Notes: generated by a model from the sequence alone, not told the origin. A stretch of DNA of 39,413 nt from a virus (IMGVR_UViG_2703718855_000002), one strand, 5' to 3'; counted from the stretch's first letter, positions 5,436 through 36,231 are shown. Translations and numbers: made by a program.

Positions 5436-5450
5436 TTACCGTTTAGGTAA
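5436..5450. promoter_or_regulatory. Operator-like palindrome TTACCGTTTAGGTAA (left operator region)
   Basis: Perfect TTACC-N5-GGTAA; 62 bp from site 5498. Confidence 0.5.
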
Positions 5451-5497
5451 TAATTATGCGTATTTGGTTTGATGTCAATAGATATGAGTTAAAAAAA

Positions 5498-5512
5498 TTA
5501 CCCATTAGGTAA
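5498..5512. promoter_or_regulatory. Operator-like palindrome TTACCCATTAGGTAA (left operator region)
   Basis: Perfect TTACC-N5-GGTAA with extended A/T flanks. Confidence 0.5.
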
Positions 5513-5524
5513 TAGTGTAGGCAA

Positions 5525-5548
5525 TAAAAAAGCCACCAGAAGGCGGCT
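5525..5548 (-). terminator. Rho-independent terminator after repressor gene
   Basis: Minus-strand hairpin AAGCCGCCTTCTGGTGGCTT followed by TTTTTT (plus-strand A-run 5525..5530). Confidence 0.5.
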
Positions 5549-5569
5549 TACTTACTGAAAAGTATTATT

Positions 5570-6154
5570 TTATTGTTTGTTTTTTTCGTTCTGGTTGATG
5601 ACAAATTCAATGTAACTTTCGATCTTTGCTTTCTCGGTTTCAGGTAACAATGCGTAGCGCGAGCGGTCATAGTTGATAGTTGCAGGGTCGTGCGGGTGAA
5701 TCAGTAGTTCATATCCGTGACGCCCGAATGCAGATGCAACATTCTCCAGGGTGGAAATGGAAACGCTGACCTCATTGTTTAACAGGCGGCTGATTGTCAC
5801 CTGGGCGACGCCGGATGCGCGGTGAAGTTTTCCCTGTGTTGAAAGGTCGCGGCTTTCGCTCATCCAGCGTTCCAGGTTGTGAGCCGCCAGCTGACCAATG
5901 TCGCTTGGGCCGACAGGCTGAAAACCTTCCTGAGAAAGCGAGCGATCGATATCAAGCCAGTTACGGGGTTTATTGGCGGCAGCTTCAATTTTTCGCGCAA
6001 CCTGGTCGCCGATAACCTTCTTGCCAAGAGCCCAGCGGTTTACCAGATTTGCCTGAGTTCCAAGTTTTTCAGCCATCCGCGTCTGAACACCATTGAATTC
6101 ACGGTCGATCAAGTCGTTGAGATTTTGCCTGCGGACGTCCTGGATACTTTTCAT
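5570..6154 (-). CDS. Prophage repressor (CI-like, XRE-type HTH, no S24 peptidase domain)
   Basis: 194 aa; N-terminal HTH (TRMAEKLGTQANLVNRWALGKK); divergent from Cro-like gene with palindromic operators on both sides; C-terminal half has a second HTH-like segment (ASGVAQVTISRLLN). Confidence 0.7.
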   Translation of the reverse strand: MKSIQDVRRQNLNDLIDREFNGVQTRMAEKLGTQANLVNRWALGKKVIGDQVARKIEAAANKPRNWLDIDRSLSQEGFQPVGPSDIGQLAAHNLERWMSESRDLSTQGKLHRASGVAQVTISRLLNNEVSVSISTLENVASAFGRHGYELLIHPHDPATINYDRSRYALLPETEKAKIESYIEFVINQNEKNKQ

Positions 6155-6209
6155 TTTCTGGAAAATCGCCTCATATATGAATCAGTAGATGATTCAATTT
6201 AAAGCAATA

Positions 6210-6224
6210 TTACCCAATAGGTAA
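6210..6224. promoter_or_regulatory. Operator-like palindrome TTACCCAATAGGTAA (right operator region)
   Basis: Perfect TTACC-N5-GGTAA between repressor and cro-like starts; adjacent partial site 6227..6241. Confidence 0.5.
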
Positions 6225-6257
6225 ATGCACCCCATAGGTAACTATCCTTGATTTTTG

Positions 6258-6272
6258 TTACCTTATGGGTGA
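6258..6272. promoter_or_regulatory. Operator-like palindrome, imperfect (TTACCTTATGGGTGA)
   Basis: One mismatch in right arm; 48 bp from site 6210. Confidence 0.35.
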
Positions 6273-6308
6273 ATATTTATTATCTGAAATAAATATCAGG
6301 CAATAGCT

Positions 6309-33516: not shown

Positions 33517-33532
33517 CTGTATATTTATACAG
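33517..33532. promoter_or_regulatory. LexA (SOS) box CTGTATATTTATACAG
   Basis: Perfect CTGT-N8-ACAG with AT-rich spacer, immediately upstream of small antirepressor-like gene. Confidence 0.75.
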
Positions 33533-33571
33533 TATCAAATAATTTGTTTGCTATCCAGCACGTTTTGTAAA

Positions 33572-33586
33572 TTACCCGAAAGGTAA
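33572..33586. promoter_or_regulatory. Operator-like palindrome TTACCCGAAAGGTAA
   Basis: Perfect site in divergent region between small antirepressor-like gene and tailspike. Confidence 0.5.
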
Positions 33587-33612
33587 TATCTATTCGTATT
33601 TACAGTCTTTCT

Positions 33613-33639
33613 ATCCATATGTGGTTTTTCAGGTAATAG
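33613..33639 (+). promoter_or_regulatory. Candidate late promoter: ATCCATATGTGGTT - 7 nt - TAATAG (tailspike)
   Basis: Same motif/spacing as at 14969 and 36253. Confidence 0.45.
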
Positions 33640-33690
33640 AATAACCAGATATGCGGCGCAACGGGTGCTGCGACTATCTGGAGATTTAAC

Positions 33691-35982
33691 ATGACGGTCT
33701 CAACCGAAGTTGACCACAACGAATACACAGGCAATGGCGTTACGACATCGTTTCCGTATACCTTCCGCATTTTCAAAAAATCCGACCTGGTTGTTCAGGT
33801 GGTTGACCTTGATGAAAATATCGCTGTGCTGGATCTTGATACTGATTACACTGTCACTGGGGCTGGTGGATACAACGGTGGCAATGTAATTTTGTCGAAG
33901 GCATTGGCCAGCGGTCATCAGATTTCTATATCTCGAGAGCTACCAGTTACGCAGGAAACCGATCTGCGCAATCAAGGTAAGTTCTTTGCTGAAGTGCATG
34001 AGGATGCTTTTGATAAGCTCACTATGCTTATACAGCGGGCATATAGCGTTTTTCGCTTAGCTCTGCGTAAACCATCAAGCATTGCGAACTGGTACGACGC
34101 GCTGAACAACTGCATCCGCAATTTGCGCGATCCCTGCAACCCGCAGGATGCCGCCACCAAAAATTATGTCGATACGCTCGCAAACAGCAACTTAATCCGC
34201 ACGCTGCGAGTTCCAGAAGTTATTATATCCTTGCCTGATGCTGAAACCAGAGCTAATAAGATGGTTGCATTTGATAGTATCGGCAATCCTTTAGTGGTTT
34301 TGCCTCCTTCAGGTTCTGCTTCTGATGTTCTTATTCAGTTGGCTGCCTCAGATGGAGCAAAATTATCGTTAAGTCAAGTAGCCACCGCATATGGCCTTGA
34401 TTTCTCGTTAGGCGGTGTATGGCGGGAGGGGGCGTTATCTAATGTTGATAACTGGTGGTGGTATAATAATAAAATCTACACTGGTGGTAGTGGCACTCTT
34501 CCGTCATCTCCTGCTTTGCCATGGTACGAAGTGACGGTAGCAGATTATATTTCTGTTGCTCAATTTTTCCCCATTACTGGTGATCCAGCGGCAGATAACT
34601 CAGCTAGCTTTAATGCTGCTGCAGCAGTTGCTTTATCGGCAGGAAAGAGGCTGTTTGTCCCTGCAGGAACTTACTATGTTAAGTCACCAGTTGATTTAAC
34701 AATAGGCACTGTTGACCTATTCGGGGATGGCGTTGAGAAGTCATTCATTATTGCGGGGAGTGGGTTCACTGGAGAGGCAGTTGTCAACATGTACTACGAA
34801 ACTGACTCTATAAGACGTAGCACATCTATCTATCACGTTACAGTTGATGGGAACAACATCGCCAACTATCCTTGCCGAATTCAATATGTTCACCTAGGAA
34901 GAACCCATAATTGTCGTTTCATCAATGGCGCGGTGGCGAACTTATATACTATAAACGACTGGCTTAATACCTATGATTGCTGTTCTTTTGTTCCTGCGCC
35001 AAATCGCGGAGTTCACCTTGCTGGGGCTAACAACCGCGTAACGTTCAATAACTGTGGATTTGCATCAAATAAGGTCGGTGAATATGCCTTTTATGCTTCT
35101 GGTACTTCCCCTATTGAAGGTTTAAGCTTAATTGGATGTGACCTTGAGTTCGGCATTGGGCATGGCATGTACTTAAATACCCGAGTGACCAATATTGTTG
35201 GCGGGTACTATGGCGAAGCGATACAAGGCGATATTTTTACGGTTCCAGATGGAGTAGTAAAAATAAGCGGTGTAAATGCTTTTGTAGGATATTACAATGA
35301 GGGAGGAAGGTTTGTTGTTCTTGACAATGATGCTGTAGTTAAGGTTGATAGTTGCTGGATTGCAGATCAGGGCAACTTTAAACTTTCATTACTTGCATCA
35401 AGCGCTGACAACAGGGCTCATGCTGTATTTACTAATTGTTATATTGGTGCAACTGTGTCTGGCCCACAAGTTATGGAAGGAGATTGTTTAGGCAAGATCA
35501 ATATGAGGACGTTTGCAGAAAGCAGGGCAATCCTTTATACAATGAACAATACTGGTAATACAGTAACCAGAAGCAGATACAACTCAATAGGAGCAAAAAT
35601 AACCATTAATACCGTAACGAGCCCTAGTTCTAACAAGCTATCACTTAATACTAAGATAAAAGACAGAGGGTGGAAGGTTAACGACCGGGTGTACTTAATT
35701 GTTACTTATGAGAGTAATGTTGATATAAATATTTATTTAAGCAGTTCGATATATGCTGCATCGGATGCAACGCTATTTGGAACTTTACCATCAACAAATG
35801 GTTCTTTATCTACGTGTTATATTGCTAATAATATTATTCCGGAAAATACATCTGAGATATTCGAGTTTTATGTAAATGGCGCTGGTGTTGGCGATTACTT
35901 TGCTATTCAGGATGTTACTCTTACAGACAGGTCATTCACTTTCAGTGGAACAACTATGACCACTTTTGCTAAGGCTGAATAA
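33691..35982 (+). CDS. Tailspike / tail fibre (T7 gp17-like N-terminal anchor, C-terminal parallel beta-helix-like domain)
   Basis: 763 aa; N-terminal YTGNGVTTSFPYTF...TDYTV pattern; C-terminal half visibly AT-richer (by eye). Confidence 0.75.
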   Translation: MTVSTEVDHNEYTGNGVTTSFPYTFRIFKKSDLVVQVVDLDENIAVLDLDTDYTVTGAGGYNGGNVILSKALASGHQISISRELPVTQETDLRNQGKFFAEVHEDAFDKLTMLIQRAYSVFRLALRKPSSIANWYDALNNCIRNLRDPCNPQDAATKNYVDTLANSNLIRTLRVPEVIISLPDAETRANKMVAFDSIGNPLVVLPPSGSASDVLIQLAASDGAKLSLSQVATAYGLDFSLGGVWREGALSNVDNWWWYNNKIYTGGSGTLPSSPALPWYEVTVADYISVAQFFPITGDPAADNSASFNAAAAVALSAGKRLFVPAGTYYVKSPVDLTIGTVDLFGDGVEKSFIIAGSGFTGEAVVNMYYETDSIRRSTSIYHVTVDGNNIANYPCRIQYVHLGRTHNCRFINGAVANLYTINDWLNTYDCCSFVPAPNRGVHLAGANNRVTFNNCGFASNKVGEYAFYASGTSPIEGLSLIGCDLEFGIGHGMYLNTRVTNIVGGYYGEAIQGDIFTVPDGVVKISGVNAFVGYYNEGGRFVVLDNDAVVKVDSCWIADQGNFKLSLLASSADNRAHAVFTNCYIGATVSGPQVMEGDCLGKINMRTFAESRAILYTMNNTGNTVTRSRYNSIGAKITINTVTSPSSNKLSLNTKIKDRGWKVNDRVYLIVTYESNVDINIYLSSSIYAASDATLFGTLPSTNGSLSTCYIANNIIPENTSEIFEFYVNGAGVGDYFAIQDVTLTDRSFTFSGTTMTTFAKAE

Positions 35983-35987
35983 TTAAC

Positions 35988-36013
35988 AGAAAAGGTGGAT
36001 CACTCCACCTTTT
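35988..36013. terminator. Bidirectional rho-independent terminator after tailspike
   Basis: AAAA-GGTGGA-TCAC-TCCACC-TTTT. Confidence 0.65.
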
Positions 36014-36158
36014 CATCAAGCCAGTCCGCCCACCACTGCATCATTTCTCTGCGCTTATCGAGATACTGAGCATGGTTGTAAATCCCGCGCATAGATCCTC
36101 CGTTAGCATGTGTCAGTTGCACCGCATTGACATCCTCCACGCCCTGAAGTACTGGGTT
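36000..36158 (-). pseudogene. Integrase 3' remnant (C-terminal 52 codons of a P4-type integrase)
   Basis: Minus-strand translation ...HANGGSMRGIYNHAQYLDKRREMMQWWADWLDEKVE aligns with C-terminus of the intact integrase at 1..1257; in-frame TAA directly upstream. Confidence 0.55.
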
Positions 36159-36216
36159 TTACGGCGCACTGGATAAATTTACGATCTCATCCGTAAAATA
36201 CAAAAAAACCACTTTA

Positions 36217-36231
36217 TTACCTTTATGGTGA
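36217..36231. promoter_or_regulatory. Operator-like palindrome, imperfect (TTACCTTTATGGTGA) upstream of lysis cassette
   Basis: One mismatch in right arm. Confidence 0.3.

What the first reader, a model, noticed from the sequence alone, without database searches (positions are those of the whole stretch)
5436..36231. One 15-17 bp palindrome, ATTACC-N5-GGTAAT, recurs at least 14 times and sits at nearly every promoter or operon boundary
Perfect TTACC-N5-GGTAA sites occur at 5436, 5498, 6210, 8541, 8603, 11755, 14916, 32125, 33192 and 33572, with one-mismatch sites at 6258, 6595, 11773 and 36217. All are intergenic or overlap ribosome-binding sites, none lies inside a coding body, and flanks extend the symmetry. 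A fixed 10-base palindrome is expected about 0.04 times by chance in 39 kb. They cluster as classic operator pairs on both sides of the repressor gene, but also precede the replication-adjacent operon, terminase, portal operon, both antirepressor genes, the 210-aa moron, the tailspike and the lysis cassette. Two pairs (5436/5498 and 8541/8603) are exactly 62 bp apart, about six helical turns. This looks like a genome-wide operator network akin to mycobacteriophage L5 stoperators; a different phage or host regulator is also possible.
Basis: partly seen in the sequence, partly recalled or inferred. Interest (0 to 1): 0.8.

Follow-up and report, generated by a model that had tools for sequence, protein, structure and literature searches.

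The report
Genome-wide prophage repressor operator sites
The repeated palindrome is most likely the binding site of this epsilon15/phiV10-type prophage's own repressor, placed at almost every promoter so that one protein can silence the whole virus; the same sites are already annotated in phage epsilon15, so it is real but not new.

Summary
TTACC-N5-GGTAA occurs 10 times perfectly (0.01 expected) and 14 times with at most one mismatch, at the stated coordinates. All sites are intergenic, though only 8.7% of the window is non-coding.

The window is an E. coli Uetakevirus prophage (phiV10/epsilon15 type). The GenBank record of epsilon15 already marks ATTACC-N5-GGTAAT as 'repressor' binding sites, including sites before the terminase, portal and tailspike genes. 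The gene at 5570-6154 is a homologue of the crystallised SPC32H repressor Rep. A LexA-controlled homologue of its antirepressor Ant is also present.

The sites are conserved at the same positions in eight phages from four host genera: half-sites 99% identical, spacers and flanks about 54%. Repressors with related DNA-binding domains in three other phage lineages use the same half-site, but only next to the repressor gene.

Most sites sit on or just upstream of promoters that follow terminators, so they look like initiation operators. They are not L5-type stoperators, which are asymmetric, oriented roadblocks. The two 62-bp pairs each bracket a promoter.

Verdict: a real Rep operator regulon, already known in kind. 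A second conserved palindrome, AACCATATATGGTT, lies beside many operators and is unexplained.

The parts
5570..6154 (-). Rep, the prophage repressor. It has an N-terminal DNA-binding domain, a middle HTH-fold domain and a C-terminal tetramerisation/Ant-binding domain.
   Evidence: PDB 5D50 (SPC32H repressor) matches at E=4e-42 over residues 1-190. Pfam HTH_3 hits residues 106-147. The protein is 100% identical to the repressors of phiV10 and ZX5. The putative recognition helix NLVNRW is invariant across the genus.
6309..6539 (+). Cro-like small HTH protein, first gene of the rightward early operon.
   Evidence: phrog_35 'transcriptional repressor'. It is 58-84% identical across the genus, with AGTTSHYIQ.HLT invariant. 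It always occurs together with Rep, and a homologue sits next to the operators of Psychrobacter phage pOW20-A.
5436..5450 (.). OL1, a perfect operator covering about -8 to +9 of the leftward early promoter PL.
   Evidence: PL has -35 TTGACA at 5478-5473 and -10 AATTAT at 5455-5450 on the minus strand, 10 of 12 matches. The last base of the -10 is the first T of the operator.
5498..5512 (.). OL2, a perfect operator 62 bp from OL1, upstream of the PL -35 at about -70 to -54.
   Evidence: The 62-bp register is kept in 7 of 8 genomes and is 63 bp in the Klebsiella phage.
6210..6224 (.). OR-a, a perfect operator between rep and the cro-like gene.
   Evidence: It is conserved in position in all 8 genomes.
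6227..6241 (.). OR-b, a degenerate operator (GCACC-N5-GGTAA, two mismatches) 17 bp from OR-a.
   Evidence: It is a perfect site at the same +17 position in the Salmonella and Klebsiella phages.
6258..6272 (.). OR-c, a one-mismatch operator lying over the rightward early promoter PR.
   Evidence: PR is predicted as TTGTTA 6255-6260, 17 bp, TATTAT 6278-6283. An alternative -35, TTGATT 6248-6253, is conserved.
6595..6609 (.). One-mismatch operator just after the cro terminator (6561-6580) and upstream of the replication operon.
   Evidence: It is conserved in phiV10, Tyrion and the Klebsiella phage, and is degenerate in the epsilon15 type.
8541..8555 (.). Perfect operator after the short terminator that follows the replication genes. 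It is the upstream partner, at about -62.
   Evidence: A terminator is annotated at the same place in phiV10. The site is conserved in all 8 genomes.
8603..8617 (.). Perfect operator at about +1 of a promoter (-35 TTGATT 8575-8580, 17 bp, -10 TTAAAT 8598-8603). It overlaps the ribosome-binding site of the DUF1064 gene.
   Evidence: The promoter is read from the sequence and was not reported by the scan tool.
11755..11787 (.). Two adjacent operators, 11755-11769 (perfect) and 11773-11787 (one mismatch), 18 bp apart. They lie after terminator 11718-11735 and directly before the terS ATG at 11789.
   Evidence: An extended -10, TGgTACTAT at 11746-11754, abuts the first operator and is conserved in all lineages.
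14916..14930 (.). Perfect operator about 80 bp upstream of the likely start of portal-operon transcription.
   Evidence: It is the only conserved block at the edge of a left flank that has otherwise diverged.
32125..32139 (.). Perfect operator abutting a -10-like hexamer (TACTAT, 32144-32139, minus strand) upstream of the 210-aa gene of unknown function.
   Evidence: The gene belongs to phrog_1349, function unknown.
33192..33206 (.). Perfect operator at about +1 of the promoter of the Bro-N antirepressor gene (32212-32937, minus strand).
   Evidence: The promoter is TTGAAA 33234-33229, 17 bp, TATATT 33211-33206, 10 of 12 matches. The C-terminus of the Bro-N protein falls in the same family as Ant, phrog_450.
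33572..33586 (.). Perfect operator in the divergent region between the ant gene and the tailspike gene.
   Evidence: It is annotated as a repressor site at the same position in epsilon15, 19895-19911.
36217..36231 (.). One-mismatch operator about 60 bp upstream of the lysis-cassette promoter (TTAACC 36251-36256, 17 bp, TATGAT 36274-36279).
33238..33510 (-). Ant, a small antirepressor, with a perfect LexA box (CTGTATATTTATACAG) at 33517-33532 just upstream.
   Evidence: 87% identical to SPC32H Ant. The LexA box was found.

Best explanation
The palindrome (A)TTACC-N5-GGTAA(T) is the operator of Rep, the prophage repressor encoded at 5570-6154. Rep's N-terminal helix-turn-helix domains would bind the two half-sites, whose centres lie 10 bp apart.

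In this phage genus the operators are not confined to the immunity region. Nearly every transcription unit is closed off by a terminator and then restarted from its own promoter, which carries an operator.

The sites fall into three positional classes.
(a) Operators fused to the -10 element, so that they cover the transcription start. These are at PL, the promoter after the replication genes, terS, the 210-aa gene, the Bro-N antirepressor gene and probably ant. At PR the operator lies over the promoter's -35/spacer region instead.
(b) Partner operators 62 bp upstream, about six helical turns away. These occur at PL and at the promoter after the replication genes. A Rep tetramer could hold both sites of a pair and so enclose the promoter.
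(c) Single operators 60-80 bp upstream of the portal, tailspike and lysis promoters and of the replication-operon promoter.

In a lysogen, Rep would therefore shut off early, replication, packaging, structural, lysis and antirepressor genes directly. Induction would work through the LexA-controlled antirepressor Ant, which removes Rep.

What is shown: the sites, their positions, their conservation, and the homologies. What is inferred: that Rep binds them, where transcription starts, and that pairs are looped or bound cooperatively.
For: Enrichment and location. There are 10 perfect sites against 0.01 expected. All sites lie in the 8.7% of the window that is non-coding. There are none in 50 kb of adjoining host DNA.

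Prior annotation. The epsilon15 record marks seven ATTACC-N5-GGTAAT sites as protein_bind 'repressor, lysogeny'. They include sites before terS, the portal operon and the tailspike, and after the replication genes.

Homology. Rep matches the SPC32H repressor structure 5D50 at E=4e-42. Ant is 87% identical to SPC32H Ant and carries a LexA box. Papers report that SPC32H Rep binds palindromic DNA as a tetramer, has an N-terminal DNA-binding domain, and has a tetramerisation domain of a type linked to DNA looping (PMC9638917; PMC9986798).

Conservation. The sites sit at the same relative positions in 8 genomes from Escherichia, Salmonella, Enterobacter and Klebsiella. Half-sites are 0.99 identical, spacers 0.54 and flanks 0.52-0.56. 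Rep is only 43-78% identical overall across these phages, yet the helix NLVNRW is invariant.

Link between domain and half-site. Repressors with a related N-terminal domain in Pseudomonas phage PseuP_224, Psychrobacter phage pOW20-A and lambdoid H-19B have TTACC-N4-GGTAA, TACC-N5-GGTA and TTAYC-N5-GRTAA beside their own genes.

Search blind to proteins. A scan of viral contigs for the paired pattern alone returned 80 stretches. Of these, 64 encode a Rep-type domain and the cro-like gene. The spacing was 62 bp 111 times, 63 bp 19 times and 61 bp once.

Promoter overlap. The scan tool predicts PL, PR and the Bro-N promoter lying on operators. Operator flanks approximate a -10 hexamer ending on the first T of the site.

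Experiment in a sister phage. Overexpression of the identical repressor in phage ZX5 cut endolysin and holin mRNA by 99.99% and 99.97% (PMC9782041).
Against: No binding data for these sites could be read. The epsilon15 genome paper and the two primary SPC32H papers are not in the library. The link from Rep to the sites therefore rests on annotation, homology and co-occurrence.

At the portal, tailspike and lysis promoters the operator lies well upstream of the core promoter. Repression from that position is not self-evident.

Most transcription starts are read from the sequence. Several of the promoters have weak -35 elements and were not reported by the scan tool.

The ZX5 result could be indirect.

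The cro-like protein is just as conserved as Rep and may share the sites.

The same palindrome also occurs in unrelated settings, such as iteron arrays inside replication-initiator genes. The sequence alone therefore does not identify the protein that binds it.
Confidence: 0.8

Rival explanations
1. The sites are bound mainly by the cro-like protein (6309-6539) or another phage regulator rather than by Rep. Rep would then act only at a subset near its own gene.
For: The cro-like protein is more conserved across the genus than Rep and has an invariant HTH segment. It always occurs together with the motif.
Against: In lambda-type switches Cro and the repressor share operators, so this is more an addition than an alternative (established knowledge). 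The half-site follows the Rep-type domain into PseuP_224 and H-19B. The tblastn search for the cro-like protein found neither of these phages. Epsilon15 annotates the sites as repressor sites.
Confidence: 0.08
2. Only the sites beside the repressor gene are working operators. The distal copies would be carried-along remnants of duplicated promoter cassettes with little regulatory effect.
For: PL and the region after cro share an extended stretch of about 28 nt (operator, 5 nt, second palindrome), which suggests cassette duplication. At late promoters the operator lies 60-80 bp upstream of the core.
Against: Distal half-sites stay 99% identical across four host genera while spacers and flanks fall to about 54%. 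That implies selection on the sites themselves. Several distal sites are fused to a -10 element in exactly the way seen at PL.
Confidence: 0.07
3. The sites bind a host transcription factor shared by enterobacteria.
For: The motif is the same in phages of four host genera.
Against: There are no perfect sites in 50 kb of host DNA next to the prophage. The same half-site lies beside homologous repressors in Pseudomonas and Psychrobacter phages.
Confidence: 0.03
4. The palindromes act in RNA, as hairpins for processing, termination or translational control.
For: Each site can form a stem of 5-7 bp. Some overlap ribosome-binding sites (8603, 11773).
Against: The hairpins are weak, -4 to -7 kcal/mol, and some fold no better than shuffled sequence. 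The stem sequence is invariant rather than co-varying. Mismatches in the imperfect sites are mostly not compensated. Several sites lie upstream of the likely transcription start or between divergent genes.
Confidence: 0.02

Closest known systems
Repressor-binding sites annotated in Salmonella phage epsilon15 (GenBank AY150271.2)
   Same: The motif is the same, ATTACC-N5-GGTAAT. The genus is the same. The positions are the same: left of the repressor gene, after the replication genes, and before terS, the portal operon and the tailspike.
   Different: The window's phage is of the phiV10 type, and its Rep is only about 43% identical to that of epsilon15. The phiV10 record and the PGAP annotations of related prophages do not mark the sites. 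This window also has sites before a Bro-N antirepressor gene and a 210-aa gene that epsilon15 lacks.
Rep-Ant switch of Salmonella phage SPC32H (PDB 5D50, 5D4Z)
   Same: There is a homologous repressor (E=4e-42) and an 87% identical antirepressor with a LexA box. SPC32H carries the same motif at the same positions.
   Different: Whether the published work mapped all the dispersed sites could not be checked. A later paper states that how this repressor represses has not been extensively characterised (PMC9986798).
Lambda-type OL/OR operators, here in relatives with the same DNA-binding domain family (H-19B, pOW20-A, PseuP_224)
   Same: There are clusters of 2-3 palindromic sites on both sides of the repressor gene, lying over divergent early promoters. 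The half-site is the same, TTAYC/GRTAA.
   Different: In those phages the sites occur only beside the repressor gene. pOW20-A and PseuP_224 carry Q-like antiterminator genes. Here the sites are spread over the genome, no antiterminator domain was found among the genes scanned, and the repressor is removed by an antirepressor rather than by self-cleavage.
Stoperators of mycobacteriophage L5 (from established knowledge; not re-read here)
   Same: One prophage repressor has many binding sites spread through the genome, including the late gene region.
   Different: L5 sites are asymmetric 13-mers, oriented with transcription. They lie inside transcription units and are bound by a monomer that blocks elongation. 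Here the sites are palindromic, follow terminators, sit on or near promoters, and belong to an unrelated tetrameric repressor.

Membership tests
Uetakevirus (epsilon15/SPC32H-type) Rep operators | 15-17 bp palindrome ATTACC-N5-GGTAAT | tested here: met
   The sequences are of the same form as the annotated epsilon15 sites.
Uetakevirus (epsilon15/SPC32H-type) Rep operators | A Rep-family repressor gene flanked by operator clusters | tested here: met
   PDB 5D50 matches at E=4e-42. Sites lie at 5436 and 5498 to the left of the gene and at 6210, 6227 and 6258 to the right.
Uetakevirus (epsilon15/SPC32H-type) Rep operators | Distal sites at the same relative positions as those annotated in epsilon15 | tested here: met
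   The terS, portal, tailspike and post-replication sites align with epsilon15 sites 12-27, 2931-2947, 19895-19911 and 35906-35922.
Uetakevirus (epsilon15/SPC32H-type) Rep operators | A LexA-controlled Ant antirepressor partner | tested here: met
   Ant is 87% identical to SPC32H Ant. A LexA box lies at 33517-33532.
Uetakevirus (epsilon15/SPC32H-type) Rep operators | Physical binding of Rep to the sites | not testable with these tools
   This needs gel shift, footprinting or ChIP. The primary papers could not be opened.
L5-type stoperators | Asymmetric site with a strand orientation tied to the direction of transcription | tested here: not met
   The sites are perfect inverted repeats, so they have no orientation.
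L5-type stoperators | Sites lie inside transcription units, downstream of promoters, and act on elongation | tested here: inconclusive
   Most sites follow terminators and overlap or precede promoter elements. Site 11773 lies downstream of the proposed terS start, and so could also act as a roadblock. Sites 8603 and 11755 cover their proposed starts. No transcription starts have been mapped.
L5-type stoperators | Many sites dispersed beyond the immunity region | tested here: met
   Ten of the 15 sites lie outside the rep flanks.
Lambda-type CI/OL-OR switch | Operators confined to the two flanks of the repressor gene | tested here: not met
   Sites occur from 5436 to 36231. They are confined to the repressor flanks in the relatives pOW20-A and PseuP_224.
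Lambda-type CI/OL-OR switch | Repressor with a self-cleaving peptidase S24 C-terminal domain | tested here: not met
   Pfam finds only HTH-type domains in Rep. The C-terminal part matches the Ant-binding part of the 5D50 and 5D4Z structures.

The most novel reading that the evidence does not exclude
Transcription units in this phage genus may be governed by a two-palindrome code. The Rep operator would be paired with a second, undescribed 14-bp palindrome, AACCATATATGGTT. This second motif sits inside the spacer or -35 region of the portal, tailspike and lysis promoters and beside the operators at PL, after cro and after the replication genes. An unidentified phage factor would bind it. Candidates are the 66-aa cysteine/histidine-rich protein at 6690-6890, the PerC-like activator at 2559-2858, or Rep's own middle HTH-fold domain. 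Together with the dispersed Rep operators, this factor would replace the antitermination cascade of lambdoid phages as the timer of middle and late genes.
Probability: 0.3. Interest if true: 0.55.

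Novelty: already known. Interest (0 to 1): 0.3.

Why it matters
The finding shows how a common family of E. coli and Salmonella prophages is kept silent. One repressor appears to hold almost every promoter directly, including those of the packaging, structural, lysis and antirepressor genes. 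This contrasts with lambda, where the repressor holds two early promoters and a cascade does the rest.

The comparison made here adds one point. Repressors with related DNA-binding domains in phages that carry a Q-like antiterminator use the same half-site only next to their own gene. Spreading of the operators is therefore what sets this genus apart.

In practice the motif is a reliable marker for annotating promoters and operators in phiV10-type prophages, where current annotations omit them. It also corrects the terS start.

None of this overturns current understanding.

Tried and rejected
Literature. I tried to open the epsilon15 genome paper (PubMed 17825342, PMC2698709) and the two SPC32H papers (PMC3807360, doi 10.1073/pnas.1602618113). 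None is held. Full-text searches for the motif, and for operators in phiV10 or Uetakevirus, found nothing beyond the ZX5 paper.

Search for divergent Rep variants. A search of viral contigs with the Rep alignment returned 80 loci, all 100% identical to the window's Rep. It was therefore useless for testing co-variation.

RNA hairpin reading. Rejected. The stems are weak, their sequence is invariant, and mismatches are mostly uncompensated.

Replication-origin reading. The window's own origin iterons lie elsewhere, at 7160-7312, with a different unit. However, 18-bp-period arrays of the same palindrome do serve as iterons inside replication-initiator genes of two unrelated viral contigs.

Second palindrome. 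I considered a DnaA box or an IHF site, by eye against consensus sequences recalled from memory, and found a poor fit. I considered it as the operator of the cro-like protein. That seems unlikely, because pOW20-A has a cro-like homologue but no such motif in its switch region.

Site upstream of int. A conserved one-mismatch match (TTACC-N5-GGTAT) lies about 57 bp upstream of int in relatives, just outside the window. Epsilon15 annotates that spot as an integrase site, so I did not count it.

Full report
WHAT IS THERE

TTACC-N5-GGTAA occurs 10 times perfectly in the window, against 0.01 expected from shuffles. It occurs 14 times with at most one mismatch, against 0.71 expected.

I built a gene map from the ORF list, from related annotated phages and from PGAP annotation of sister prophages. 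On that map 8.7% of the window is non-coding. All 14 sites lie in that fraction, as does one two-mismatch site at 6227. The other 27 two-mismatch matches are all in coding sequence.

The only doubt concerns 11755 and 11773. They would fall inside terS if the gene began at TTG 11709, as PGAP and the phiV10 record have it. That start runs through a terminator hairpin. Three other records start terS at the ATG right after the second site.

Fifty kb of adjoining host chromosome holds no perfect site but four one-mismatch sites. The window's four imperfect sites therefore count only because they are conserved in place in related phages.

The consensus is wA-TTACC-wwWww-GGTAA-Tw. The centre of the spacer is A or T in 96% of sites.

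WHAT THE WINDOW IS

The window is an integrated prophage of the genus Uetakevirus (phiV10/epsilon15 type). It is about 97% identical to E. coli phages PAS61, phiv142-3 and ZX5 over most of the first 25 kb that was compared. It starts at the integrase gene. It ends in the host genes yfgI and yfgH.

THE MOTIF IS ALREADY ANNOTATED

The GenBank record of epsilon15 carries seven protein_bind features labelled 'repressor, lysogeny'. Their sequences are ATTACC-N5-GGTAAT. They lie to the left of the repressor gene, after the replication genes, and before terS, the portal operon and the tailspike gene. These are the same relative positions as in the window.

The phiV10 record and the PGAP annotations do not mark the sites. 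I could not open the epsilon15 paper or the primary SPC32H papers.

WHO BINDS IT

The gene at 5570-6154 encodes a homologue of Rep, the repressor of Salmonella phage SPC32H, whose structure is solved (5D50, E=4e-42). It is identical to the repressors of phiV10 and ZX5.

The gene at 33238-33510 encodes a protein 87% identical to the SPC32H antirepressor Ant. A perfect LexA box lies just upstream of it. A second antirepressor gene encodes a Bro-N protein whose C-terminus belongs to the same family as Ant.

Papers I could read say the following about SPC32H Rep. It binds palindromic DNA as a tetramer, with DNA-binding domain pairs drawn from different dimers (PMC9638917). Its tetramerisation domain is of a type that drives DNA looping in another repressor (PMC9986798).

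In phage ZX5, overexpression of the identical repressor cut holin and endolysin mRNA by more than 99.9% (PMC9782041).

Three computations link the motif to the Rep domain.

1. Conservation across the genus. In eight genomes from four host genera the sites keep their positions. Half-sites are 0.99 identical, spacers 0.54 and flanks about 0.54. Rep is only 43-78% identical overall, yet the likely recognition helix NLVNRW is invariant.

2. Other lineages with a related domain. Repressors with a related N-terminal domain (34-40% identical) in three other phage lineages have the same half-site in the switch region next to their own gene. PseuP_224 has TTACC-N4-GGTAA, pOW20-A has TACC-N5-GGTA, and H-19B has TTAYC-N5-GRTAA.

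3. A protein-blind search. I scanned viral contigs for two sites in a 61-63 bp register. Of the 80 stretches returned, 64 encode a Rep-type domain and the cro-like gene. The Rep domain was 54-100% identical to the window's. The spacing was 62 bp in 111 of 131 pairs.

WHAT SETS THIS GENUS APART

In pOW20-A and PseuP_224 the sites occur only on the two flanks of the repressor gene. Both phages carry a Q-like antiterminator gene. In the window no antiterminator domain was found among the genes scanned, and the operators are spread along the genome.

ANATOMY

Most distal sites follow a terminator and precede an operon. Reading the aligned regions gives three classes of site.

Class 1: a -10 hexamer fused to the operator, so the operator covers the transcription start.
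- PL: TTGACA, 17 bp, AATTAT, with its last base in the operator at 5436. Predicted by the scan tool.
- The promoter after the replication genes: TTGATT, 17 bp, TTAAAT, at 8603.
- terS: extended -10 TGgTACTAT, at 11755.
- The 210-aa gene: TACTAT, at 32125.
- The Bro-N gene: TTGAAA, 17 bp, TATATT, at 33192. Predicted by the scan tool.
- Probably ant, at 33572.
- At PR the operator (6258) lies over the promoter's -35/spacer region instead.

Class 2: partner operators exactly 62 bp upstream, at 5498 and 8541. Each pair therefore brackets a promoter. The spacing is about six helical turns and is kept across the genus.

Class 3: single operators 60-80 bp upstream of the likely starts of the replication operon (6595), the portal operon (14916), the tailspike gene (33572 again) and the lysis genes (36217). 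How Rep would repress from that position is not clear. A GGTAAT half-site at the -10 of the portal promoter lies exactly 62 bp from the upstream operator. The one at the tailspike promoter lies 50 bp away. These may help, but that is conjecture.

Apart from the three tool-predicted promoters, all transcription starts are inferred from sequence.

COMPARISON WITH L5 STOPERATORS

The resemblance is in logic only: one repressor with many dispersed sites. The defining features are an asymmetric site, an orientation tied to transcription, a position inside operons, and a monomeric repressor that blocks elongation. These are either not met or not applicable here. The second terS site (11773), which lies downstream of the proposed start, could also act as a roadblock.

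RIVAL EXPLANATIONS

- The cro-like protein probably shares the sites, as in lambda-type switches. It is unlikely to be the sole binder.
- A host factor is unlikely, given the host count and the Pseudomonas and Psychrobacter relatives.
- An RNA role is unlikely. The hairpins are weak and their sequence is invariant rather than co-varying.
- Distal sites as neutral remnants is contradicted by their conservation.

A SECOND PALINDROME

AACCATATATGGTT occurs 4 times with at most two mismatches, against 0.10 expected. The sites are at 6615, 14969, 33613 and 36253, and each lies 20-53 bp to the right of a Rep operator. Weaker copies lie at PL (5456), before 8603 (8584) and at 33234.

The offsets from the operator are conserved across the eight genomes: +20, +53, +41/42, +36/44 and -19.

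At PL and at the 8603 promoter the motif fills the promoter spacer. At the portal, tailspike and lysis promoters it covers about -33 to -20, where the -35 is weak. The epsilon15 record does not annotate it. I could not assign a binding protein.

VERDICT

Its main interpretation is right, but it restates a feature already annotated for this phage genus. Interest is modest. The unexplained second palindrome and the contrast with antiterminator-carrying relatives are the parts worth following up.

Noticed in passing
window 6615-6628, 14969-14982, 33613-33626, 36253-36266; weaker copies at 5456-5469, 8584-8597, 33234-33247: A second conserved palindrome, AACCATATATGGTT. It occurs 4 times with at most two mismatches, against 0.10 expected. 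It lies at fixed offsets from Rep operators in all eight genomes, inside the spacer or -35 region of the portal, tailspike and lysis promoters. It is not annotated in epsilon15, and the protein that binds it is unknown.
   Followed up: partly
window 33517-33532 and 33238-33510: A perfect LexA box, CTGTATATTTATACAG, lies just upstream of a gene 87% identical to the SPC32H antirepressor Ant. Induction is therefore probably wired to the SOS response through Ant rather than through cleavage of the repressor.
   Followed up: partly
window 32212-32937: The Bro-N protein carries a C-terminal segment (residues 158-239) of the same family, phrog_450, as the small Ant. The prophage therefore seems to have two antirepressors with one shared module, each behind its own Rep operator.
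   Followed up: partly
window 33085-33234: The predicted Bro-N promoter (33234-33206, minus strand) is followed about 100 nt later by a terminator-like hairpin (33101-33085). This lies about 150 nt before the Bro-N start at 32937. It could be a leader, an attenuator or a small RNA.
   Followed up: no
window 7160-7312: Six iteron-like repeats with a unit like ATCCC-AAAAAC-GGGAT, at 18-24 bp spacing (the first gap is 45 bp). They lie inside the DnaT/HTH_36 replication-initiator gene and are the likely origin of replication. Two copies contain a TTACC or a GGTAA half-site.
   Followed up: partly
window 11709-11789: The terS start used by PGAP and the phiV10 record (TTG 11709) runs through a terminator hairpin and both operators. 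The ATG at 11789, which aligns with the starts annotated in epsilon15, SPC32H and Tyrion, is the more likely start.
   Followed up: partly
window 36000-36134 and 38343-39413: In a sister prophage, an integrase-fragment pseudogene is annotated at coordinates matching the window (36000-36134). It sits where relatives carry O-antigen modification genes between the tailspike and lysis genes. The last 1.1 kb of the window is the host genes yfgI and yfgH.
   Followed up: partly
loci L113 (7182-7277) and L116 (7251-7387); L120 (339-688) and L170 (3793-4142): The same palindrome turns up in unrelated viral contigs. In two it forms 18-bp-period iteron arrays inside replication-initiator genes. In two low-GC phages it forms operator clusters between divergent small XRE-type repressor genes. 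The sequence is thus reused by different DNA-binding systems.
   Followed up: partly
window 14517-14593: A tRNA-Arg (anticodon TCT) lies on the minus strand between the terminase module and the portal-operon operator.
   Followed up: no
window 6690-6890: A 66-aa protein (phrog_1081, function unknown) with a cysteine/histidine-rich segment, CKHGH...HCVEC, is the first gene after the operator that follows cro. It occupies the position cII holds in lambda and is a candidate regulator.
   Followed up: no
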